This document shows positions 10,235 through 17,631 of a stretch of 64,000 bases of DNA, one piece after another; within the stretch, counting starts at the first letter, position 1, and the number at the start of each line of letters is the position of its first letter. Source of the stretch: Candidatus Dormiibacterota bacterium (GTDB taxonomy: Bacteria > Chloroflexota > Dormibacteria > Aeolococcales > Aeolococcaceae); NCBI GenBank assembly GCA_963718525.1, contig OY970355.1:1536001-1600000 (forward strand), in the 5' to 3' direction. Both the position numbers and the translations under genes were made by a program. A model generated the notes under the pieces. The model was not told where the DNA came from and did not search any database. It was given only the letters and a program-made list of their open reading frames with translations.

Positions 10235-11287
10235 TCAGACTGGGTACACGTCGATCTCGGTCGCCTTGACCACCGCGAAGACCTCACCGCCGTCGGCAAG
10301 ACGGAGCTCCGAAGCGGCTGCCGGCGTGACCTCCGCCACAAGCGGAAATGCGCCGTCGAGGCGGATCCGCCAGCGGTCGCCCTCCGGATCGACGCCGGCC
10401 ACGGTGCACCGCAGCACGTTCCGGGGACTCCCGCCGGGGGCCTGACGGTAGAGGGCGATCGCCCGCGGTTGGATGGTCGCGAGCGCGGGACCTTCCACGT
10501 TGGTTGCCGCCGTCAGCCAGGACCCGTCCCCGAGCAGCATCGCCCCGCTCGAAACCCTCCCGCGGAGGAGGTTCAACCCCGCCATCCGCGCGATCCACGC
10601 GGACCGGGGCCGGGCGGATACGTCGCTGAAGGGTCCTTCCTGGGTGACCCGACCGTCCTCGAGGACCACGACTCGCTCGGCGAGTGATGCGGCTTCCAGC
10701 GGGTCGTGGGTCACGATCAGGCGCACGCCGCTGAACGTGGCGAGGTGCTCGCGCAGCGCCCGTCGTAACTCCAGGCGCCCCGAAGCATCAACGGCTGCAA
10801 GCGGCTCGTCGAGCAGGAGGACGCGCGGGTCGGTGACCAGCACTCGAGCGAGCGCCGCCCGCTGCGATTGACCGCCGCTGAGGGCGCTGGGCCGCGACGC
10901 AGCGTATCTCGCGAGGTCCACCCGATCGAGCCACTCAGCCGCTCGCTCGTGTGCGGACTTGGCGTCGACCCCGCGTGCGCGCAGTCCGAACGCGACGTTG
11001 TCGAGCACGCTGAGGTGCGGAAACAGTCCGTGGTCCTGGAACACGAATCCGACCCGTCGACCCTCGGGCGTCAACCAGGTGCCTGTCGCCGTCTCCTCGA
11101 ACACGACGCCGTCCACCTCCACCCGTCCATCATCGACAGGCTGCAGGCCCGCGATGACGCGCAGCAGCGTCGTCTTGCCGGCACCGTTCGGGCCGAGCAC
11201 CGCGACCGTGACACCGGACGCCACCGACAGATCGCACTCGAGACGGAGGCTCCCGAGCTGCGTGCGGACCCGGGCGTGGAGCGTCAC
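10235..11287 (-). CDS. modC: Molybdate ABC transporter ATP-binding subunit with TOBE domain
   Basis: GPNGAGKTT, LSGGQ, LLLDEP, C-terminal TOBE (VKATEI); GTG start overlaps modB stop. Confidence 0.9.
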   Translation of the reverse strand: MTLHARVRTQLGSLRLECDLSVASGVTVAVLGPNGAGKTTLLRVIAGLQPVDDGRVEVDGVVFEETATGTWLTPEGRRVGFVFQDHGLFPHLSVLDNVAFGLRARGVDAKSAHERAAEWLDRVDLARYAASRPSALSGGQSQRAALARVLVTDPRVLLLDEPLAAVDASGRLELRRALREHLATFSGVRLIVTHDPLEAASLAERVVVLEDGRVTQEGPFSDVSARPRSAWIARMAGLNLLRGRVSSGAMLLGDGSWLTAATNVEGPALATIQPRAIALYRQAPGGSPRNVLRCTVAGVDPEGDRWRIRLDGAFPLVAEVTPAAASELRLADGGEVFAVVKATEIDVYPV

Positions 11288-12084
11288 CGCAGCGCACCCA
11301 GCCAGCGGTCCCGCAGGACGACGAGCACGAGGACCGAGATCGCGAGCAGCAGCAGGGAAAGCGTGATCGCCATGCCGATCTGCCCCGAGCCCTCGAACGA
11401 GCTGTACGCGGCGATAGGAAGGGTCTCGGTGGTGCCAGGGAAGCTGCCCGCGAAAGTGATCGTGGCACCAAACTCGCCGAGCGCTCGCGCCCAGCAGAGC
11501 GCGGCGCCGGCGGCGATCGATGGCGCTGCGAGCGGCAATGTCACGTGCCAGAAGCGTCGCCACGGACGCGCACCGAGGGTCGCGGCGACCTCCTCGAAGC
11601 GGTCGTCGCGCTGCCGGAGTCCGGCTTCGACGGTGATCACGAGAAATGGGAAGCCTACGAACGCCTCGGCGATGGCGGCCCCCGCGGTGCTGAACGGCAG
11701 CACGATGCCGAAATGATCGAGCAGCATCCCGATCGGGGTGGTCCGGCCGAGGGCGGTCTGGAGCGCGATCCCGCCGACCACCGGCGGGAGCACCAGTGGC
11801 AGGGTCACCAGTCCGCGGACGACGCGGCGTCCCGGGAGCGACGTGCGCGCCAGCAGGTAGGCCAGCGGAACGCCGATCAGCAGCGCTATCACCACCGCGA
11901 TCACCGAGCATTCGAGGGACAGACGCAGTGCGGTGAGCACGTCTGTCGACACCAGCTGCGACGGGAGGTTGCGCCAGTCCACGTGGACGAGCAGACCGAT
12001 CAGCGGTAGCGCGATGAACAGGACCGCGACCGCGGCCGGGATGAGGAGACCGAGGAGTGGACGTCGGCTGACGCCCCGGTTCAC
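11284..12084 (-). CDS. modB: Molybdate ABC transporter permease
   Basis: LPLVLPPVVGG, EEVAATLGA, ARALGEFGATI. Confidence 0.92.
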   Translation of the reverse strand: MNRGVSRRPLLGLLIPAAVAVLFIALPLIGLLVHVDWRNLPSQLVSTDVLTALRLSLECSVIAVVIALLIGVPLAYLLARTSLPGRRVVRGLVTLPLVLPPVVGGIALQTALGRTTPIGMLLDHFGIVLPFSTAGAAIAEAFVGFPFLVITVEAGLRQRDDRFEEVAATLGARPWRRFWHVTLPLAAPSIAAGAALCWARALGEFGATITFAGSFPGTTETLPIAAYSSFEGSGQIGMAITLSLLLLAISVLVLVVLRDRWLGALR

Positions 12085-12863
12085 GACGCCTTCAGGAATC
12101 CGACGGACAGCAGCTCTGCCTGGACATCCCCGGAGACCGCCGAGGTGACGAACGCCTGGGCAGCGGTCATGTTGGTGCTCGACTTCAGCACGGCGATCTC
12201 ATAGGTGCCGATCACATTCTGGGCGTCCGGTATGGCGATCCCGGTCACCTTGCCACCCGCGCTGAAGACGTCGGTCACGAAGACCAGCGCCGCGTCCGCA
12301 TTCCCGGATTCGACCTGCTCGACCACCAGCGCGTCGTCGGACTCGAGCGAGTTCGGCGTGACCTTGACGTTCGCAGCCTTGAGCGCCTTGGCCGCATAGT
12401 CGCCGACGGGGACGCCTGCCATCGCGAGCACGACCGACAGGCCCGGTGTGGCGAGATCGGCGAGTGTTTTGATGTTCTTCGGGTTTCCTGGCGCGACGAT
12501 GATCTCGAGCTTGTTCTTGACTAGGGCCTGCGGGGTATCGACAAGTCCCTTGGCCACAAGTTGCTGCATCGTCGAGGTGTTCGCCGTTGCGATGACGTCA
12601 GCCGGCGCGCCGTTGATGATCTGTGTCACCAGTGCCTGCGAGCTCCCATATGAGTACTGAGCTGTGAAGCCGGGGTGATCAAGCTCGAGGCCTTTTTCGG
12701 CGTCGTTGAACGGGCTCGTCAGGGAGGATGCGGCGAACACGGTGATCGCCCCGGAGAAGGGATCGGCCGGCGCGGAGGATCCGGTGGCCGAGGTCGATCC
12801 GCATGCCGCGAGCACCATCGCGCCTGGTGCGAACAGCAGGAGGGGCCGGATGCATGGCTTCAT
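12081..12863 (-). CDS. modA: Molybdate ABC transporter substrate-binding lipoprotein
   Basis: Lipobox VLAAC, VFAASSL, GSSQAL, GAPADV, VPVGDYA. Confidence 0.92.
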   Translation of the reverse strand: MKPCIRPLLLFAPGAMVLAACGSTSATGSSAPADPFSGAITVFAASSLTSPFNDAEKGLELDHPGFTAQYSYGSSQALVTQIINGAPADVIATANTSTMQQLVAKGLVDTPQALVKNKLEIIVAPGNPKNIKTLADLATPGLSVVLAMAGVPVGDYAAKALKAANVKVTPNSLESDDALVVEQVESGNADAALVFVTDVFSAGGKVTGIAIPDAQNVIGTYEIAVLKSSTNMTAAQAFVTSAVSGDVQAELLSVGFLKAS

Positions 12864-13279
12864 GGTTTCCTCGGCTGCGAGTCCGCCGCCGGAGGCATCT
12901 CGATGACGACATTGGTGGCTTTCACGGACGCGACCGCGAGCATGCCAGGCTCGAGACCAAGCTCCCGAACCGCCTCGCTGCTGATCAATGAGCTGATCCG
13001 GAAGGGACCGGCCTGGAGCTTGACATGCGCCATCACGCCGTCCGTGGCGACGTCGGTCACCAGCCCGAGGAAGTGATTGCGCGCTGACTCGGTGGCGGGC
13101 ACGGTCGGGTGGTTGCTCGCGACCTCGACGGCGAACCTGGCCAGTGCGACACCGTCGACCAGCCGGTGGCCACCCTCGGTGCGGACCGTATCGATGCGTC
13201 CAGCGTCGGCCCAGCGCCGCACCGTGTCGACGCTGACGCCGAGGAGCTCCGCGGCCTGGCCCATCTTGTATGTCGGCAT
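12860..13279 (-). CDS. HTH (MerR/excisionase-like) plus TOBE molybdate-responsive regulator
   Basis: AAELLGVSVDTVRRW HTH and SARN...VKATNV TOBE; first gene of mod operon. Confidence 0.88.
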   Translation of the reverse strand: MPTYKMGQAAELLGVSVDTVRRWADAGRIDTVRTEGGHRLVDGVALARFAVEVASNHPTVPATESARNHFLGLVTDVATDGVMAHVKLQAGPFRISSLISSEAVRELGLEPGMLAVASVKATNVVIEMPPAADSQPRKP

Positions 13280-13349: not shown

Positions 13350-14006
13350 CTATTCGTGCGCGACCACGGTGACCGCGTGCACCACATCGCTGACAAAGAG
13401 CGGAGCGGGGTAGATCACCCGGACGTACCCCTGTGGGTCGATGACAGCGAGAAAATTGGTGTGCGGAGCTTCGATCGGCTCACCCCACTTCAACCAGGTG
13501 ATCTTCAGTTCGGCGTCGGGTCCGAGGAGCCAGCGCCATCCGGGATCCCACTTGGTTGTGAGATTCGTGCGGATGAACTGCGCCACGTTCGCGGGGGTGC
13601 GGTCGGCGACGACGCTCACGATGAGCAGAACCGGATTGATCCCCTTGGGCAGTGCCTGCTCGACGGCGACGATGTCACGACCGAGGAGCGGGCAGAGGTT
13701 GACACACAGTGGGTCCATGAATGCGACGAGCACGACATGGCCCTTCTCGTCTGCGAGCGAGACTGACTGGCCATTCTGGTCGACGAGCCCGGTCAGCGGA
13801 GGTGTCGGCTGGCGTGTGAGTGGTGAGCCGATGATGTTCGCGGAGGGCGTGATCTCCAATGGGGCACTTGTCGTTCTGACGCTCGGGTGCACCGTCATGG
13901 ACATCAATGCCCCGATGCCAAGCCCACCCGCAAGTGCGACCGCAACGATCAGCGCCTGCCCACGCTTGGAACGAGTCAGGCCTCCGAGGCGCTCCGAGGG
14001 CTTCAT
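13350..14006 (-). CDS. SCO/SenC-family copper chaperone (thioredoxin fold, membrane anchored)
   Basis: N-terminal TM, LVDQNG, FMDPLCVNLCP (CxxxC), PHT His, VIDPQGYVR; SD GAGGA before ATG 14006. Confidence 0.82.
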   Translation of the reverse strand: MKPSERLGGLTRSKRGQALIVAVALAGGLGIGALMSMTVHPSVRTTSAPLEITPSANIIGSPLTRQPTPPLTGLVDQNGQSVSLADEKGHVVLVAFMDPLCVNLCPLLGRDIVAVEQALPKGINPVLLIVSVVADRTPANVAQFIRTNLTTKWDPGWRWLLGPDAELKITWLKWGEPIEAPHTNFLAVIDPQGYVRVIYPAPLFVSDVVHAVTVVAHE

Positions 14007-14150
14007 CCACAATCCTCGCACTCGGCAACGGCTGATAAGTGGTCGCCTCCGCACCTCCCGGCGGCGTCCCGCTTGCGAGCGAGGCGCCAATTATGGCTCG
14101 CTTGAACCCGCTCCGGTGACGCCCCCGATGCGCGAGCGTATGCTCCGCGC

Positions 14151-14858
14151 GTGATCCCCAAGCGGCAGGCGAGGATTGCTGCGCCAGGCGTCGTTCTCCT
14201 GGCGCTGGTTGGGCTGTTCATCGGCCACACCCTCGAGTACCTCCGCGTCTGGGGAGCCGAAGGGATCGTCGCGTCGATGACCAACCCCGTCCACGCGTAC
14301 ATGCTCCCGGTGGCGGGGGTCCTGTTGGGCCTCAGCGCCGTGTTCGCGTTCCGTTTGGCGCGCGCGTGGCAGAAGCTCAACGACCGGCTCGATCGAGCCG
14401 CGGCCGGTGTCCGGCGGATCTGGCGCGGGCGAGCCGACGAGGCGCCCAGTTCGCCAACTTCCCGATCGACCCCGGGGACCCGTCTGGTGGCCCTGTGGCT
14501 ACCGCTCGCCGCGGCTCAGATTGCCCTGTATCTCGTGCAGGAGAACCTCGAGGCGGCGGCGCGCTCGCAGCCCGCGCCCGGGTGGGGTGCGATCACCGGG
14601 GTGCATTGGGCGGCCCCGCTTATCCACCTCTACGTGGCCCTCCTGCTCGCCTGCATCGTCCGCATTTGCGAGATTTTGTTCCGCAGGCGGGAGGTCGCGG
14701 TCGAGCGGGTCGAGGCCATGCTCCGGGCTGCGATCAGCCGGAGGCGGCACACGGTCGCCGGCGTTGGGACGCCCGTCCACCCTCAGTGCGCATCACCACT
14801 TGATCAGCTTGGCAGGCACCTCTGGAGGAGGCCACCCCCGCAGCTCCTCGAAGTCTGA
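14151..14858 (+). CDS. His-rich polytopic membrane protein ending in RRPPP; candidate translation-arrest leader
   Basis: About 4 hydrophobic helices with GHTLEY, VHAYM, VHW, IHLY; -10 TATGCT 6 nt before GTG; C-terminus HLWRRPPPQLLEV. Confidence 0.7.
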   Translation: MIPKRQARIAAPGVVLLALVGLFIGHTLEYLRVWGAEGIVASMTNPVHAYMLPVAGVLLGLSAVFAFRLARAWQKLNDRLDRAAAGVRRIWRGRADEAPSSPTSRSTPGTRLVALWLPLAAAQIALYLVQENLEAAARSQPAPGWGAITGVHWAAPLIHLYVALLLACIVRICEILFRRREVAVERVEAMLRAAISRRRHTVAGVGTPVHPQCASPLDQLGRHLWRRPPPQLLEV

Positions 14859-14910
14859 CCGACCGTCCGTGAGCTTCGGCTCACCAACGATCCGTTCACA
14901 CCTTGAGGAG
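14823..14910 (+). promoter_or_regulatory. Anti-SD / UUCG hairpin / SD translational switch
   Basis: CTCCTCGAAG (14844-14853) complementary to CTTGAGGAG (14902-14910); GTGAGC-TTCG-GCTCAC hairpin at 14869-14884. Confidence 0.6.
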
Positions 14911-14918
14911 ACATCAAG

Positions 14919-15647
14919 TTGTCCAGAACTCGCCTGCGTTTGTCCGCGGTTGCCGCAGCGGCGCTGCTCGCCCTGACCACGTCATTCGCTGTTGCGTCGG
15001 CGCATTTTGTGTTCACCGCCGGCAAGTATCGGATCGCCATCGGCTGGCAGTTCGAGCCTGCGGGTGGCACCGATACGTATGTCGGCGCCCCCAATGCGAT
15101 CCAGGTGTTCATCGACGTTCCGTCGGCATCGAACCCGATCGGGACCCCCGTCAGCACGCTCAACCAGGACTGCACGCATCCGGATTTTCAGGTCACCGTG
15201 ACCGTCGGGAGCACGACAAGCAGTCCATTCTGCCCGGTGCCCCTGTACGACGCCGATACCGGTAACGGCAGGCGTGACGAATACGACTATGCGCTCATCC
15301 CCACAGTGGTCGGAACCTACACCTTTCGCCTCTTCGGCACCATCAACGGCGTTCCGGTCAACCAGACGGTCGCGTCGGGCCCGACGACTTTCGACTCCAT
15401 CGCGGATTCGAGCGCCGTTCAGTTCCCGGTGGTCATACCGGCAGCGGCTGCCGTGGCAACCAAGGTCGACACCGTGAGTCAACGCGCCGCAAGCGCGCTG
15501 TCGAGCGCACAGTCCGCATCAACAACAGCCAGTGACGCGAAGACGAGCGCCTCCGGTGCAACCACACTCGCGATCATCGCGATCGTTGTGGCGGTGCTGC
15601 TCAGCGCACTCAACCTGGTGATCGGGTTGCGCCGCCGGAGCACGTAG
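14919..15647 (+). CDS. Exported, C-terminally anchored protein with predicted N-terminal His (probable copper-binding)
   Basis: Signal peptide ending ASA-H, C-terminal TM plus RRRS; SD GAGGAG before TTG; upstream of copCD. Confidence 0.7.
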   Translation: MSRTRLRLSAVAAAALLALTTSFAVASAHFVFTAGKYRIAIGWQFEPAGGTDTYVGAPNAIQVFIDVPSASNPIGTPVSTLNQDCTHPDFQVTVTVGSTTSSPFCPVPLYDADTGNGRRDEYDYALIPTVVGTYTFRLFGTINGVPVNQTVASGPTTFDSIADSSAVQFPVVIPAAAAVATKVDTVSQRAASALSSAQSASTTASDAKTSASGATTLAIIAIVVAVLLSALNLVIGLRRRST

Positions 15648-15648
15648 C

Positions 15649-17631
15649 ATGCGGATGCGGCGGTCGCTGATCGTCGGTGCAACTCTTGCGGCGGGGGCAG
15701 CCATCTGGCTGCCCCTGACCGCGGCCGCCCATGCGCTGCCGCAGAGTGCCATACCTCCCGAGGGAGCGGAGGTGCAAATCGCACCGAAGCTTGTGGAGAT
15801 CACCTTTGGTGAGACGCCCGACCCGAAGCTGTCGACAATCACCGTGATCAACAGCGCTGGGTTGAGCGTCGACGCCGGACCGACCGTCGTCGTGCCGGGC
15901 CATCCACTCGAGCTCGAGGTGCCCCTGCAGCACATCGGCAACGGCGTGTACACGGTGACATGGAAGACCGTCTCCGAGGTCGATGGTCATCTCGCGACCG
16001 GCGCGTACGCCTTCGGGGTCGGGGAGTCAGCCGCGAGTGCCAACGCGCACGCGAGCAGGTCAGTGGTGTCACCGCCGCCGTCGGTCCTTGCGGTGGTGGG
16101 GCGCTGGCTGTTCTTCGTCGGCGTTATGGGCATGGTCGGAATCGTGTCGACGTGCCTGCTCGTGCTGGCGGCAGTTCCGGCCTCGAGCGGACGAATGCTG
16201 GCCGGAGCCTGGATCGCCGGCGCCGTCGGCGTTGCGGGCGTCGTCGAAGCACAGCGCGAAGCCGCGGGAGTTGCCTTCAGCTCGTTGCTTTCAACATCAC
16301 TCGGAACGACCGCCGTCGAGCGAATCGTGGCGATCGCGGCCACAGGACTGGCAGTGGTTGCCGCATCGGTAGGCCCCGCCGCCGGAAGGCGGATCGCGGT
16401 GGCGCTGGCCGGCGTCGGAGCGGTAGCGTCAATGTGGGTCGATGTCGCGGCGAGCCACGCCGGTGCTCAAGCGCCGGTCGCGCTCAATCTATTCGCGCAG
16501 TGGGCACACATCGTTGCGAGCGGCATCTGGATCGGCGGCTTGTTGGTTCTCATCGTGGCTGTCCGAGGGCAGCCGTCTGAGCTCAAAGGACGAGCCGTGC
16601 GCCGCTTCTCAACCATCGCGGGAATCGCCATCGTCCTGGTCGCGCTCACCGGGACGTTCCGAGCGGTGATCGAGATCGGATCGATCGGGCAGCTCTTCGC
16701 CACCGCCTTCGGGGTGCTCGTCATCGTCAAGGTGGCGCTGTTCCTGGTGCTCGCGGCTCTCGGCGCGATCAATCGCTACCGCAACGTGCCGCGCGCCGCC
16801 AGGGTGCTGCGAGGCCTGCGACGCGTCGGGTCCACCGAGGTCGTGATCGGCGCCGCCGTTGTGCTCGTCGCCGCAGCGCTCGTGAATGTTGCGCCGCCGG
16901 TTGCCTCCACGGCTGCGGCGCCAACGGCACGGTCGAGCCAGCTCGTCGTCACCGGCAGCGACTTTGCCACCACCGTGAAAGTCCGTCTCACCGTGTCACC
17001 GGGGACCGCCGGCTTCAACAACTTCGTCCTTCGCGTCACCGACTACGACACCGGCGCGACGGTAAACGCCGCTTCGGCGCAGCTCGAGTTCACGCAGCCG
17101 CTGCGACCGCAGCTCGGCCAGTCAACGCTGACGCTCAAGCGTCAGCCTGATGGAAGCTTTGCAGCGCGCGGCGGCAACCTCGCGATCGCCGGGATCTGGG
17201 AGGTCGCAGCGATCATCGAGAACGCAGCGAACTCCACCGAAGTCCATCTCCAGGTGACGACGATCACACCCGCACCGATCGTCACGGCGACCCGCTTCAG
17301 CGGATTGCCCACCCTGTATTCGATCCAGCTGCCGAACGGCGGGATTGCCCAGGTCTACATCGATCCCGACAAGGCGGGTGCCGACGAGTTTCATGTCACC
17401 TTCTTCACAAACTCCAACGAGACCAGCGAGATCCACATCGCATCGATCACTGTCGGCATCACCCCACCTGGAGGTACGCCCACCGTCCTGGTCACCCGCC
17501 GCCTGGATCCGATTGGCCATTTCGTCGCCGATGCCACAGTCCCAGCGGGCGCCACGCGCTACGACGTCATCGCCACGACGCAGACCGGCGTCCCCATCGC
17601 GACCTACGTGACGATCACGCCCGGGCCCTGA
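15649..17631 (+). CDS. CopC/CopD fusion copper uptake protein with C-terminal Ig-like domains
   Basis: Signal AAA-HA, YTVTWKTVSEVDGH (CopC), ASHA, WAHIVASGIWIGGL, RRFS (CopD). Confidence 0.88.
   Translation: MRMRRSLIVGATLAAGAAIWLPLTAAAHALPQSAIPPEGAEVQIAPKLVEITFGETPDPKLSTITVINSAGLSVDAGPTVVVPGHPLELEVPLQHIGNGVYTVTWKTVSEVDGHLATGAYAFGVGESAASANAHASRSVVSPPPSVLAVVGRWLFFVGVMGMVGIVSTCLLVLAAVPASSGRMLAGAWIAGAVGVAGVVEAQREAAGVAFSSLLSTSLGTTAVERIVAIAATGLAVVAASVGPAAGRRIAVALAGVGAVASMWVDVAASHAGAQAPVALNLFAQWAHIVASGIWIGGLLVLIVAVRGQPSELKGRAVRRFSTIAGIAIVLVALTGTFRAVIEIGSIGQLFATAFGVLVIVKVALFLVLAALGAINRYRNVPRAARVLRGLRRVGSTEVVIGAAVVLVAAALVNVAPPVASTAAAPTARSSQLVVTGSDFATTVKVRLTVSPGTAGFNNFVLRVTDYDTGATVNAASAQLEFTQPLRPQLGQSTLTLKRQPDGSFAARGGNLAIAGIWEVAAIIENAANSTEVHLQVTTITPAPIVTATRFSGLPTLYSIQLPNGGIAQVYIDPDKAGADEFHVTFFTNSNETSEIHIASITVGITPPGGTPTVLVTRRLDPIGHFVADATVPAGATRYDVIATTQTGVPIATYVTITPGP

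What the first reader, a model, noticed from the sequence alone, without database searches (positions are those of the whole stretch)
14139..17631. Candidate copper-sensing membrane leader with RxPP arrest motif and anti-SD switch controlling a Cu-uptake operon
Seen: a leaderless-type 235-aa membrane ORF with His/Met/Glu in or beside its helices (GHTLEY, VHAYM, QENLE, VHW, IHLY) ends W-R-R-P-P-P-Q-L-L-E-V-stop, using AGG-AGG for the arginines. The codons just after the prolines (CTCCTCGAAG, 14844-14853) are complementary to the next gene's SD (CTTGAGGAG, 14902-14910). A UUCG hairpin (14869-14884) lies between them, and a competing GAGGAG (14825-14830) lies inside the Arg codons. Downstream are a His1-type exported protein and a CopC/CopD fusion. 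Established: SecM (RAGP) and ApdA/ApdP (RAPP) stall ribosomes to expose a downstream SD; DUF2946-type leaders CruR and CutF use CxxC plus a Pro-rich C-terminal motif to make copper genes Cu-responsive. Inference: this is a larger, CxxC-free, His-based intramembrane version. A ribosome stalled on RPPP would cover the anti-SD and switch on Cu import, and Cu binding would relieve the stall.
Basis: partly seen in the sequence, partly recalled or inferred. Interest (0 to 1): 0.88.

Follow-up and report, generated by a model that had tools for sequence, protein, structure and literature searches.

The report
Copper-linked membrane ribosome-arrest leader
A conserved four-helix membrane protein ends in an Arg-Pro-Pro-Pro ribosome-stalling motif placed so that a stalled ribosome would unmask the start site of the copper-handling genes behind it; this kind of switch was published in 2025, so this is a new family of a known kind.

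Summary
ORF 14151-14858 (235 aa, four TM helices, N-in/C-in) ends W-R-R-P-P-P-Q-L-L-E-V. Codons 14844-14851 pair with the SD (14903-14910) of the next gene, around a UUCG hairpin.

- **Arrest motif:** 111 of 112 C-terminally complete cluster representatives end in R-[P/A/G]-P-P, 2-20 residues before the stop (110 of 111 at 2-11). So do 87 of 92 more distant relatives (RSPP, RPPP, RAPP). In 80 sequences of 26-70% identity the only invariant columns are H26, R227, P229 and P230.
- **Copper link:** downstream genes are mostly copper-related: a His1 exported protein plus CopC-CopD, CopC plus CtaG, or a cupredoxin.
- **SD masking:** it is kept across the genus and uses CTC/CTT, never CTG, for the two pairing Leu codons. 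It recurs with other sequences in several genera, but not in all.

This is most likely a copper-sensing RxPP translation-arrest leader (confidence 0.68).

It is not unprecedented. EMBO J 2025 (PMC12992588) reported RAPP/RGPP arrest peptides upstream of YcnI and copper genes, including a four-TM His/Met one with demonstrated arrest.

Copper binding, actual stalling and the direction of control are untested. EF-P is present and could weaken an RPPP stall.

The parts
14139..14144 (+). TATGCT, a -10-like hexamer ending 6 nt before the GTG start. It suggests a leaderless or near-leaderless transcript.
   Evidence: Present at the same spacing in 26 of 26 genus loci where the start could be anchored; 4 of the 30 loci could not be anchored by my regex. 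The flanking bases vary. No canonical -35/-10 pair was found by the consensus scan.
14151..14858 (+). ORF235: four-TM membrane protein (N-in, C-in) with a C-terminal arrest motif. Proposed copper sensor and leader.
   Evidence: 316 homologues; 175 clusters at 50% identity; four hydrophobic segments; K+R 3/1/9/1/11 in N-tail/loop1/loop2/loop3/C-tail; AF2 pLDDT 85.7, helices 4-44, 51-90, 108-137, 155-203. No Pfam or NCBIfam family.
14226..14303 (+). H26-T-L-E29-Y30 (end of TM1) through H48-A-Y50-M51 (start of TM2): outer-face conserved residues of loop 1.
   Evidence: H26 is invariant and H48 and Y50 are at 90% or more in 80 sequences of 26-70% identity. Both His are invariant in the 17 most divergent sequences.
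14538..14606 (+). Q130-E-N-L-E134 (end of TM3) through H152 (start of TM4): outer-face conserved residues of loop 3.
   Evidence: Q130, E131, N132 and E134 are at 90% or more in A3 and invariant in A5. The spacing from Q of QENxE to R of RxPP is 92-98 in 106 of 111, with mode 96 in 44.
14796..14828 (+). P216-L-D-Q-L-G-R-H-L-W-R226: conserved segment that would lie in the exit tunnel at the stall.
   Evidence: Consensus (T/S)-P-L-(E/D)-R-(L/W/F)-G-x-x-L-W-x before the motif: G in 95, W in 84 and P in 83 of 111. It is not conserved in the RAPP/RSPP branch.
14829..14840 (+). R227-P228-P229-P230 (AGG CCA CCC CCG): RxPP/RPPP arrest motif. The expected stall has P229 in the P site and P230 in the A site.
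   Evidence: R, P and P are invariant. Position x is P 103, A 7, G 1 and S/P/A in more distant relatives. The stall position is inferred from the CruR toeprint and RAPP structures (PMC12992588 section 14). R227 is AGG or AGA in 28 of 30 genus loci, against 11% genome-wide.
14844..14851 (+). Anti-SD CUCCUCGA (codons L232, L233, E234), 9-16 nt 3' of the P-site codon and so inside the footprint of a stalled ribosome.
   Evidence: Leu codons at +2/+3 are CTC or CTT in 57 of 57 cases and never CTG; the +1 Leu is CTG in 19 of 22 cases; genome-wide CTG is 37%.
14856..14858 (+). TGA stop of ORF235. It pairs with UCA 14896-14898 in the consensus fold.
   Evidence: TGA in 30 of 30 genus loci. Pairs 51-53:93-95 are kept in 29-30 of 30.
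14869..14884 (+). GUGAGC-UUCG-GCUCAC hairpin at the tip of the long intergenic stem.
   Evidence: The six pairs are kept in 28-30 of 30 loci, with loop variants in L028, L046 and L048. No U-tract follows, so it is not terminator-like. No Rfam match.
14903..14910 (+). Shine-Dalgarno region UUGAGGAG of the next gene, sequestered in the free mRNA.
   Evidence: Unpaired probability 0.002. In genus loci the mean is 0.06 free and 0.34 with the stall footprint masked.
14919..15647 (+). Exported 242-aa protein: signal peptide, cleavage A-S-A|H giving an N-terminal His, a beta-sandwich, and a C-terminal TM anchor. Its architecture resembles YcnI.
   Evidence: A28, H29, E46 and P47 are invariant in 21 sequences. 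AF2 pLDDT is 66, with strands 29-152 and a long C-terminal helix. Weak fold matches to the copper proteins CrdA (E 2.7e-3) and FtrA-P19; YcnI is not in the top 50. No Pfam or NCBIfam match.
15649..17631 (+). CopC-CopD fusion with a weak C-terminal YtkA-like domain (YcnJ-like architecture).
   Evidence: Pfam CopC 1.3e-15, CopD 2.4e-19, YtkA 5.7e-4 (below the cut-off). NCBIfam CopD and CopC score below the equivalog cut-offs.
13350..14090 (-). Divergent gene for a membrane-anchored thioredoxin-fold protein, weakly SCO1/SenC-like.
   Evidence: Pfam SCO1-SenC E 8.6e-4, 19.7 bits, below the 22.8 cut-off. Syntenic in 23 of 30 genus loci.

Best explanation
ORF235 is a member of the RxPP (RAPP-like) class of translation-arrest regulators. 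Here it is built as a four-helix membrane sensor, with a His/Glu/Met site on the extracytoplasmic face.

Proposed sequence of events:
1. The mRNA probably starts at or next to the GTG.
2. The ribosome translates the sensor, which inserts into the membrane.
3. The ribosome then meets P-L-D-x-L-G-x-x-L-W-R-R-P-P-P. It stalls with R-P-P-tRNA in the P site and the last Pro codon in the A site.
4. The stalled ribosome holds codons +2 to +4 (CUCCUCG) in its mRNA channel. These otherwise pair with the Shine-Dalgarno sequence of the next gene at the base of a long stem capped by a UUCG hairpin.
5. While the ribosome sits there the SD is free. The His1 exported protein and the CopC-CopD fusion behind it are then translated.
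6. When the stall is released, the ribosome terminates five codons later and the stem re-forms.

The release signal is most likely copper binding at the outer-face site. It would be passed on as a pull or a conformational change through TM4 and the tail, whose length is conserved.

What is shown: the anatomy, the conservation of the motif, of the sensor residues and of the helix, and the synteny with copper genes.

What is inferred: the stalling itself, copper as the ligand, and the direction. By analogy with CruR and with an acquisition-type operon next to a Sco-like gene, I favour stall = ON and copper = release.
For: **Motif**
- R-[P/A/G]-P-P lies within the last 32 residues in 111 of 112 C-terminally complete representatives of 50%-identity clusters: RPPP 103, RAPP 7, RGPP 1. 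It sits 2-11 residues before the end in 110 of them and 20 in one.
- 87 of 92 further homologues found with a profile of divergent members also have it: RSPP 52, RPPP 18, RAPP 17.
- In 80 sequences of 26-70% identity the only invariant columns are H26, R227, P229 and P230.
- The residues seen at x (P, A, G, S) are the set reported as arrest-competent (PMC12992588 section 7 passage).
- RPPP is the strongest XPPP stall context (PMC4176338 passages).

**mRNA**
- RNAalifold on 30 genus loci gives anti-SD:SD pairs kept in 28-30 of 30. The only changes are one-sided and keep pairing: 5 C-to-U and 8 G:C-to-G:U.
- The Leu codons in the helix are never CTG (0 of 57), while the preceding Leu codon is CTG in 19 of 22.
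- L002 has CUCCUCU:AGAGGAG, a two-sided change relative to the genus.
- SD unpaired probability is at or below 0.05 in 23 of 29 genus loci. The mean is 0.06 free and 0.34 with the stall footprint masked. The locus value of 0.002 is in the lowest 4.25% of 400 controls.
- In divergent copies the SD's MFE partner lies -6 to +12 nt from the end of the motif codons in 18 of 28.
- CCT makes up 20 of 92 motif Pro codons against 24 of 397 elsewhere in the same ORFs. This creates CCUCC.

**Sensor**
- Four TM helices with positive-inside topology. The conserved H26, H48, Y50, QENxE and H152 all lie at outer helix ends.
- The QENxE-to-R spacing is 92-98 in 106 of 111.

**Context**
- The orf242 family follows in 30 of 30 genus loci, and CopCD in 28 of 30; the other two loci end early.
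- Distant relatives precede CopC+Caa3_CtaG, CopC or a cupredoxin.
- 13 of 23 further copies precede the His1 protein.

**Precedent**
- TM-containing RAPP/RGPP arrest peptides occur upstream of YcnI-family and copper genes. SLIV_18480 has four TM helices, a predicted 3-His+1-Met site and demonstrated arrest (PMC12992588 sections 13, 14).
Against: - No experiment of any kind exists, and no RNA run holds the locus.
- The fold energy of this sequence alone is unremarkable (z = -1.82).
- Masking a terminating ribosome opens the SD about as much as masking a stalled one (0.31 against 0.34). Plain translational coupling would therefore also work without arrest.
- In a composition-controlled duplex scan, the footprint window is the best SD partner in only 9 of 29 loci (3.3 expected). 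It ranks 6th of 126 in this window's own locus.
- Three genus loci have a weakened anti-SD (L021, L034, L038).
- Two of 23 further copies (L054 and one in L056) face a convergent DUF5134 gene and have no co-directional downstream gene. Four more precede 160-199-aa proteins with no copper link.
- The whole protein is well conserved (66% mean column identity in the genus). RPPP could therefore be a motif of a working mature protein.
- Polyproline stalls are normally rescued by EF-P, which this genome encodes. Pro at position x only partly retained arrest in ApdA/ApdP.
- Two family members have Q in place of R (P0181, P0326).
Confidence: 0.68

Rival explanations
1. ORF235 is simply a working membrane component of the copper-trafficking system, for example a partner of the His1 protein and CopCD. 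Its C-terminal WxRPPP would be a structural or protein-interaction motif. The SD-masking helix would give ordinary translational coupling, in which any ribosome finishing ORF235 opens the SD, with no programmed arrest.
For: - The whole protein is conserved, not only its tail.
- A terminating-ribosome mask opens the SD as well as a stall mask does (0.31 against 0.34).
- Two paralogue copies have no co-directional downstream gene yet keep RPPP.
- EF-P is present.
Against: - Outside the sensor residues, only R-x-P-P stays invariant down to about 25% identity, while the rest of the tail diverges.
- The residues allowed at x match the experimentally arrest-competent set.
- The motif always sits 2-20 residues from the stop, and in all but one case 2-11.
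- RAPP-like motifs are reported as strongly excluded from proteomes unless used for arrest (PMC12992588 abstract and discussion passages).
- Seven of seven S. lividans proteins with this layout arrested.
Confidence: 0.17
2. It is an arrest peptide, but it monitors membrane insertion (Sec/YidC capacity) or some other envelope state, not copper. The pull that releases the arrest would come from insertion of the TM3-TM4 hairpin.
For: All classical RAPP-type arrest peptides are monitoring substrates released by translocation or insertion force (PMC10987492 passages; PMC12992588 discussion). The spacing between TM3/loop 3 and the motif is conserved.
Against: - Downstream genes are copper proteins, never sec or yidC, in the loci examined.
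- The conserved residues are His, Glu and Met at one membrane face, not generic hydrophobic features.
Confidence: 0.08
3. Arrest controls transcription, not translation, as in CruR. A stalled ribosome would block Rho loading, and release would let Rho terminate before the next gene.
For: This is the demonstrated mechanism for the RAPP protein CruR (PMC9426467 abstract and passages).
Against: - No Rho RNA-binding domain was found in this genome. The genome is a single 3.34-Mb contig, 88.9% complete, so absence is not proven.
- The intergenic region is only 60 nt and highly structured, not C-rich and unstructured.
- The conserved helix involves the SD itself.
Confidence: 0.04

Closest known systems
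SLIV_18480 of Streptomyces lividans, and the 'uORFs of the YcnI family' class of RAPP/RGPP arrest peptides (PMC12992588, EMBO J Dec 2025; sections 13 and 14 and passages read)
   Same: A small (<300 aa) protein with four TM segments and conserved His/Met predicted to form a copper site. An R-x-P-P motif sits a few residues from the C-terminus, and a metal-related gene (YcnI-like or copper-resistance) follows in the same direction. For SLIV_18480, arrest was shown in B. subtilis and S. lividans PURE systems and in vivo, and it was abolished by R-to-A.
   Different: This family is mostly RPPP or RSPP, not RAPP or RGPP. The word RPPP does not occur in that paper, and its search used RAPP and RGPP only. 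This family lies in Dormibacteria/Chloroflexota. Sequence homology could not be tested, because I had no SLIV_18480 sequence from a tool. The ESM Atlas lists Actinomycetota look-alike clusters at 0.96-0.97, which is a lead only. That paper's supplementary appendix figures (S5-S7) could not be seen.
CutF of Rhodobacter capsulatus (DUF2946; bioRxiv 10.1101/2025.02.05.636593, abstract and outline read)
   Same: [quoted passage not shown] There is interplay with EF-P.
   Different: CutF is a signal-peptide exported DUF2946 protein with a Cys motif, whereas ORF235 is a four-TM protein with no DUF2946 match. In CutF copper induces stalling to switch on a detoxifying oxidase. Here the downstream genes look like acquisition or trafficking genes, and the direction is unknown.
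CruR of Bordetella pertussis (DUF2946; PMC9426467, abstract and passages read)
   Same: A nascent-chain copper sensor with a C-terminal RxPP three residues from the end, and a conserved spacing between the sensor motif and the arrest motif. It heads a copper-acquisition operon. Stall means ON and copper releases it.
   Different: CruR uses CxxC, RAPP and Rho-dependent termination across a 162-bp unstructured intergenic region. Here there is no CxxC, a 60-nt structured intergenic region that masks the SD, and no Rho domain was found.
SecM, ApdA, ApdP and MifM monitoring substrates
   Same: An R-A-G-P or R-A-P-P arrest with the last Pro in the A site. The stalled ribosome disrupts a helix that hides the downstream SD.
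   Different: Those monitor Sec or YidC activity and regulate sec or yidC genes. Here the target genes are copper proteins.

Membership tests
RAPP-like (RxPP) translation-arrest peptides | R-x-P-P (x = A or G; S, P and D partly permissive) close to the C-terminus | tested here: met
   R227-P-P-P lies 5 residues before the stop. It is conserved in 111 of 112 and 87 of 92 relatives. The permissive set comes from the PMC12992588 section 7 passage.
RAPP-like (RxPP) translation-arrest peptides | A small protein (<300 aa) with an N-terminal signal or TM segments and a co-directional downstream gene | tested here: met
   235 aa, four TM helices. The next gene starts 60 nt downstream on the same strand. 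Exception: 2 of 23 paralogue copies elsewhere face a convergent gene.
RAPP-like (RxPP) translation-arrest peptides | Translation actually arrests at the motif (peptidyl-tRNA, toeprint) and this depends on the Arg | not testable with these tools
   Needs in vitro translation or a reporter assay. No RNA or ribosome-profiling run holds the locus.
DUF2946 (CruR/CutF) | Match to Pfam DUF2946; an exported protein with a signal peptide and a CxxC motif | tested here: not met
   No Pfam hit for the window protein or for any of the 80 members. There is no CxxC in the sequence. C168 and C173 are C-x4-C inside TM4 and are conserved only within the genus.
SLIV_18480-type four-TM copper arrest peptide | Four TM helices, conserved His x3 + Met, a C-terminal RxPP and a metal gene downstream | tested here: met
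   Four TM helices. H26 is invariant and H48 is at 90% or more. H152 and M51 are the family consensus but below 90%. RxPP and copper genes are as above.
SLIV_18480-type four-TM copper arrest peptide | Sequence homology to SLIV_18480 | not testable with these tools
   No tool gave that sequence. The Atlas lead to Actinomycetota clusters is not an alignment.
YcnI (DUF1775), for the 242-aa downstream protein | Match to the Pfam or NCBIfam model | tested here: not met
   No hit at E up to 0.01 for the window protein, nor at E up to 1 for four relatives (proteins 1, 7, 8 and 10).
YcnI (DUF1775), for the 242-aa downstream protein | Signal peptide cleaved to leave an N-terminal His, a conserved acidic ligand, a beta-sandwich and a C-terminal TM anchor | tested here: inconclusive
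   A-S-A|H29 and E46 are invariant. A beta-sandwich plus a C-terminal helix is predicted at pLDDT 66. The best PDB fold matches are the copper proteins CrdA and FtrA-P19 at E about 3e-3 to 1e-2. YcnI is not among the top 50. The features of the YcnI copper site are recalled, not taken from a call.
CopC/CopD (YcnJ-like fusion), for 15649-17631 | CopC and CopD Pfam domains in one polypeptide | tested here: met
   PF04234 at 58.6 bits and PF05425 at 70.1 bits, both over their cut-offs.

The most novel reading that the evidence does not exclude
The H...H...QENxE...RxPP proteins would be a phylum-wide, paralogue-expanded class of one-protein transmembrane signal transducers. An outer-face copper site would be mechanically coupled to the peptidyl-transferase centre through a tail of fixed length (about 96 residues). 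The motif's own or adjacent codons (CCUCC or CUCCUC) would double as the anti-SD.

With up to six copies per genome in front of different copper genes, they would stand in for the two-component and one-component copper regulators in Dormibacteria. No such regulator was seen next to these genes, although I did not search the genome for them.

Because the motif is RPPP and not RAPP, the switch would also be tunable by EF-P. That would merge the CutF-type and CruR-type logics.
Probability: 0.3. Interest if true: 0.7.

Novelty: new member of a known kind. Interest (0 to 1): 0.5.

Why it matters
The published survey searched for RAPP and RGPP. A whole family of hundreds of clusters that uses mainly RPPP and RSPP was outside that search. 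Metal-sensing arrest leaders are therefore probably more common and more varied than now counted, and they reach into the uncultured Dormibacteria.

The family gives an unusually clean natural data set for three questions:
- which residues at x support arrest;
- how the codons of the arrest motif are recruited as the anti-SD;
- how a metal site on the far side of the membrane could talk to the ribosome.

For annotation, these 'hypothetical proteins' can be labelled as candidate copper-responsive arrest leaders. The unassigned His1 exported protein behind them can be labelled as a candidate copper-binding protein.

Tried and rejected
**Family and fold assignment**
- Pfam, NCBIfam and Rfam give nothing for ORF235 or the intergenic region.
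- The PDB fold search with the ORF235 model has no match below E = 1.
- The reading of the 242-aa protein as YcnI could not be confirmed by sequence or by fold.

**Transcription signals**
- An intrinsic terminator or a sigma-70 promoter in 13950-15000: none by the consensus scan.

**Reaching Actinomycetota relatives such as SLIV_18480**
- tblastn against plasmids found nothing.
- A profile search of divergent members returned only unnamed or Chloroflexota-named proteins.
- The Atlas gave look-alike clusters only as a lead.

**Expression**
- No RNA holder is listed among the public runs.

**Competing GAGGAG**
It is not conserved as such: R226-R227 reads CGA-AGG in 13, CGG-AGG in 10 and AGG-AGG in 4 of 30. 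RNAalifold does not pair it with the anti-SD. I therefore leave the AGR preference unexplained.

**Automatic gene picking**
- The automatic picks of downstream starts were partly wrong (L051, L063 and others). I re-derived the ORFs and set five starts by hand.

**Rows dropped**
- L044 was dropped: it is a frameshifted copy and no PPP was found in the frame followed.
- L013 was left out as a near-duplicate of L007.
- L054 and one L056 copy were left out because they have no downstream gene.
- L004 and L016 (unpublished genome G173) were left out.
- L009, L011, L012, L014, L015, L018 and L020 gave no local tblastn hit and were never analysed. L017 ends inside the gene.

Full report
**What is there.**
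- The window is a 67% G+C stretch of a single-contig 3.34-Mb genome. Homologues are named Candidatus Dormibacteria or Dormibacterota by their sources.
- ORF 14151-14858 (+, GTG start, 235 aa) has GC3 of 0.84, like its neighbours.
  - the ORF ends W-R-R-P-P-P-Q-L-L-E-V-TGA, with AGG AGG for the two Arg;
  - CTCCTCGAAG is at 14844-14853 and CTTGAGGAG at 14902-14910;
  - the UUCG hairpin is at 14869-14884 and the TTG start of the next gene at 14919.
- Downstream lie a 242-aa exported protein and a CopC+CopD fusion.
- Upstream and divergent lies a weakly SCO1/SenC-like gene.

**The protein is real and belongs to a family with no name.**
- A search of 5.8 billion proteins gave 316 homologues, all 'hypothetical'.
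- An exhaustive phmmer search of 1.84 billion cluster representatives gave 175 clusters.
- In GTDB genomes the gene is in 41 of 41 other genomes of the same genus and in 74 of 117 of the family. One genus has up to six copies per genome. It is in 15 of 201 genomes sampled across the phylum. These tallies include four genomes marked unpublished.
- No Pfam or NCBIfam model matches the window protein or any of 80 members.
- Hydropathy gives four TM segments. K+R counts of 3/1/9/1/11 for the N-tail, loop 1, loop 2, loop 3 and the C-tail place both ends in the cytoplasm.
- AlphaFold2 with 80 sequences gives a four-helix bundle at pLDDT 85.7. It has no PDB look-alike below E = 1.

**The C-terminal motif is the most conserved thing in the family.**
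- Of 150 representatives, 112 align through to the C-terminus. Of these, 111 have R-[P/A/G]-P-P in the last 32 residues: RPPP 103, RAPP 7, RGPP 1. The motif lies 2-11 residues before the end in 110 of them (mode 5) and 20 residues in one. The exception has QPPP.
- A profile of the 17 most divergent members found 92 further proteins. Of these, 87 end in RSPP (52), RPPP (18) or RAPP (17).
- In an alignment of 80 sequences sharing 26-70% identity with the window protein, the only invariant columns are H26, R227, P229 and P230.
- In the 17 divergent sequences the invariant columns are two His, Q-E-N-x-E, two Gly, and R, P, P.
- In the RPPP branch the 12 residues before the motif are also conserved: (T/S)-P-L-(E/D)-R-(L/W/F)-G-x-x-L-W-x. 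This is what one expects of a segment that contacts the exit tunnel.
- P, A, G and S at position x are exactly the residues reported to support RxPP arrest (PMC12992588 section 7 passage).
- RPPP was the strongest of the XPPP stalling contexts in E. coli (PMC4176338 passages).

**The sensor half.**
- All the conserved polar residues sit at the outer ends of the four helices: H26, E29 and Y30 at the end of TM1; H48, Y50 and M51 at the start of TM2; Q130-E-N-x-E134 at the end of TM3; and H152 at the start of TM4.
- They would therefore face the extracytoplasmic side, not lie deep in the membrane.
- The distance from QENxE to the Arg of the motif is 92-98 residues in 106 of 111 proteins, with mode 96, although the sequence in between is poorly conserved. 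This recalls the fixed CxxC-to-RAPP spacing of CruR.
- I could not inspect model coordinates, so the clustering of these residues is inferred from topology only.

**The mRNA half: the genus.**
- RNAalifold on 30 loci of the genus predicts one long stem:
  - CUCCUCG (codons +2 to +4 after PPP) pairs with (C/U)GAGGAG, the SD of the next gene;
  - the UGA stop pairs with UCA;
  - the GUGAGC-UUCG-GCUCAC hairpin forms the tip.
- The seven anti-SD:SD pairs are kept in 28-30 of 30 loci. The only changes are one-sided and keep pairing: 5 C-to-U giving G:U, and 8 G:C-to-G:U. Three loci (L021, L034, L038) have a weakened helix.
- Codon choice argues for selection at the RNA level:
  - the two Leu codons in the helix are CTC or CTT in 57 of 57 cases and never CTG;
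  - the Leu codon just before the helix is CTG in 19 of 22 cases;
  - genome-wide, CTG is 37% of Leu codons.
- The SD is predicted unpaired with probability at or below 0.05 in 23 of 29 loci (mean 0.06). The mean rises to 0.34 when the footprint of a ribosome with P229 in the P site is forced single-stranded.
- A terminating ribosome does about the same (0.31). The helix alone therefore cannot tell arrest from plain coupling.
- Against 400 other SD-bearing putative starts in this genome (median 0.38), the value here (0.002) falls in the lowest 4.25%.

**The mRNA half: beyond the genus.**
- L002 has CUCCUCU:AGAGGAG, a two-sided change relative to the genus.
- L059 uses UCUCUCC:GGAGAGA.
- L007, L013 and L010 use the CCUCC of the Pro codons themselves.
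- In 18 of 28 divergent copies the SD's MFE partner lies between -6 and +12 nt of the end of the motif codons.
- CCT is 20 of 92 motif Pro codons against 24 of 397 elsewhere in the same ORFs.
- A stricter duplex scan, which controls for composition, puts the footprint window first in only 9 of 29 loci (3.3 expected). It ranks 6th of 126 in the window's own locus.
- The masking is therefore well supported for this genus and several others, but it is not a universal family trait.

**Context.**
- In the genus, the 242-aa protein follows in 30 of 30 loci and CopCD in 28 of 30; the other two loci end early. The Sco-like gene precedes in 23 of 30.
- The 242-aa family has an invariant A-x-A|H cleavage site that leaves an N-terminal His. 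It also has an invariant Glu and a C-terminal anchor.
- Its model (pLDDT 66) is a beta-sandwich. The best PDB matches are weak, to the copper proteins CrdA and FtrA-P19. YcnI is not among the top 50 and no YcnI model matches. 'YcnI-like' therefore describes its architecture and is not a membership claim.
- Relatives of about 30% identity from other families of the phylum precede CopC plus Caa3_CtaG (with a MerR-family gene upstream in one), two CopC proteins, or a cupredoxin lipoprotein.
- The 23 further copies fetched from the same family sort as follows:
  - 13 precede the His1 protein, usually with CopCD and a lipoprotein;
  - 2 precede another exported protein;
  - 2 precede a 464-484-aa membrane protein that no Pfam model matches;
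  - 4 precede 160-199-aa proteins with no copper link;
  - 2 face a convergent DUF5134 gene, with a copper-type P-type ATPase (HMA domain) further on.

**How it most likely works.**
- The anatomy fits the arrest-leader scheme known from SecM, MifM and CutF. A ribosome stalled with R-P-P-tRNA in the P site holds the anti-SD, 9-16 nt downstream, in its channel. The SD of the His1 protein gene stays open until the stall is released.
- EF-P is encoded, so an RPPP stall may be weaker or tunable. In CutF, a PPP stall under copper is reported to override EF-P (preprint abstract).
- No Rho RNA-binding domain was found (the genome is 88.9% complete). The intergenic region is short and structured. The Rho route of CruR is therefore unlikely here.
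- Which way copper acts cannot be read from sequence. The operon looks like acquisition or trafficking (His1 protein, CopCD, Sco-like neighbour), so I favour the CruR logic: stalled by default, and released by copper. This step is inference.

**Comparison with what is known.**
The protein is not a member of that family.
- The closer precedent is PMC12992588 (EMBO J, December 2025; I read sections 13 and 14 and passages, but not the closed supplements):
  - RAPP/RGPP small proteins are enriched upstream of YcnI-family, PCuAC and TonB-receptor genes;
  - most of those upstream of YcnI have TM segments;
  - S. lividans SLIV_18480 has four TM segments and a predicted 3-His+1-Met copper site, and it arrests in vitro and in vivo in an Arg-dependent way.
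- The present family has the same architecture but uses RPPP or RSPP, which that survey did not query. The word RPPP is absent from its text. [quoted passage not shown]
- Searches of the held literature for RPPP with 'arrest' and 'ribosome', and for YcnI with stalling terms, found no description of this family.
- Whether it is homologous to SLIV_18480 could not be tested. The ESM Atlas points to Actinomycetota look-alike clusters as a lead only.

**Verdict.** The kind of system is already known, and this is a new and large family of it.

Noticed in passing
window 14139-14153: TATGCT lies exactly 6 nt before the GTG start in 26 of 26 genus loci that could be anchored, while the flanking bases vary. 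This suggests a leaderless transcript. A 4-codon ATG mini-frame (14140-14154) overlaps the GTG in the window.
   Followed up: partly
window 14829-14837: Rare codons are kept at the arrest motif across the genus. R227 is AGG in 23 and AGA in 5 of 30 loci, against 8.4% and 2.8% genome-wide. P228 is CCA in 16 of 30 and P229 in 11 of 30, against 9.9% genome-wide. The AGR preference is not seen in other genera. The reason is unknown: slow decoding, a particular tRNA in the P or E site, or RNA structure.
   Followed up: partly
L068:2267-3658 (+), L069:1977-3428 (-), L008:668-1999 (+): Some family members sit in front of a 444-484-aa polytopic membrane protein that begins ...A-H-A-F-G-K-R-Y-D-L-P-V-P-L-W-L-F. 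Pfam (the only library tried) gave no match for the two scanned (L008, L068). A His again sits near a likely signal cleavage site, so it may be another copper protein.
   Followed up: no
L052 (G228:C7:1351963-1360534), L054 and L056 (G227:C200:1779-13966): In one genus, three copies of the family lie within about 7-8 kb. They sit together with a DUF5134 membrane protein ending in HHHH, a P-type ATPase with an HMA domain, and His1-type exported proteins. This looks like a copper island. Two of the copies are divergently arranged back to back.
   Followed up: partly
window 14074-14092: A conserved CGCCAATTATGGCTCG element lies about 60 nt upstream of ORF235 in most genus loci. It overlaps the listed TTG start of the divergent Sco-like gene, and CATAAT reads on the minus strand. 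It may be that gene's promoter, in which case its true start is further in.
   Followed up: no
L044 (G305), and split matches in G293, G294, G295, G303 and G304: In several assemblies with few contigs the ORF235 homologue is split by a frameshift. In L044 the RPPP tail is read in another frame. These may be assembly errors or real pseudogenes; this was not resolved.
   Followed up: no
window 11284-13279 (-): Upstream lies a molybdate-type cluster: a gene with MerR-HTH and TOBE domains (ModE-like, 12860-13279; Pfam), an exported lipoprotein-like ORF (12081-12863) that I read by eye as ModA-like, and a permease-like ORF (11284-12084). It appears unrelated to the finding.
   Followed up: no
whole genome G000: No Rho RNA-binding domain (PF07497) was found in the single-contig genome, which is 88.9% complete by markers. 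EF-P is present at C1:2499982-2500140 (-).
   Followed up: partly
L065:167-601 (-), L059:4401-4853 (+), L062:4943-5398 (+) and others: In other genera a 141-165-aa lipoprotein follows CopCD. One of them (L065) was scanned and gave only a faint DUF4399 match. The window lacks it; there CopCD carries a weak C-terminal YtkA-like domain.
   Followed up: no
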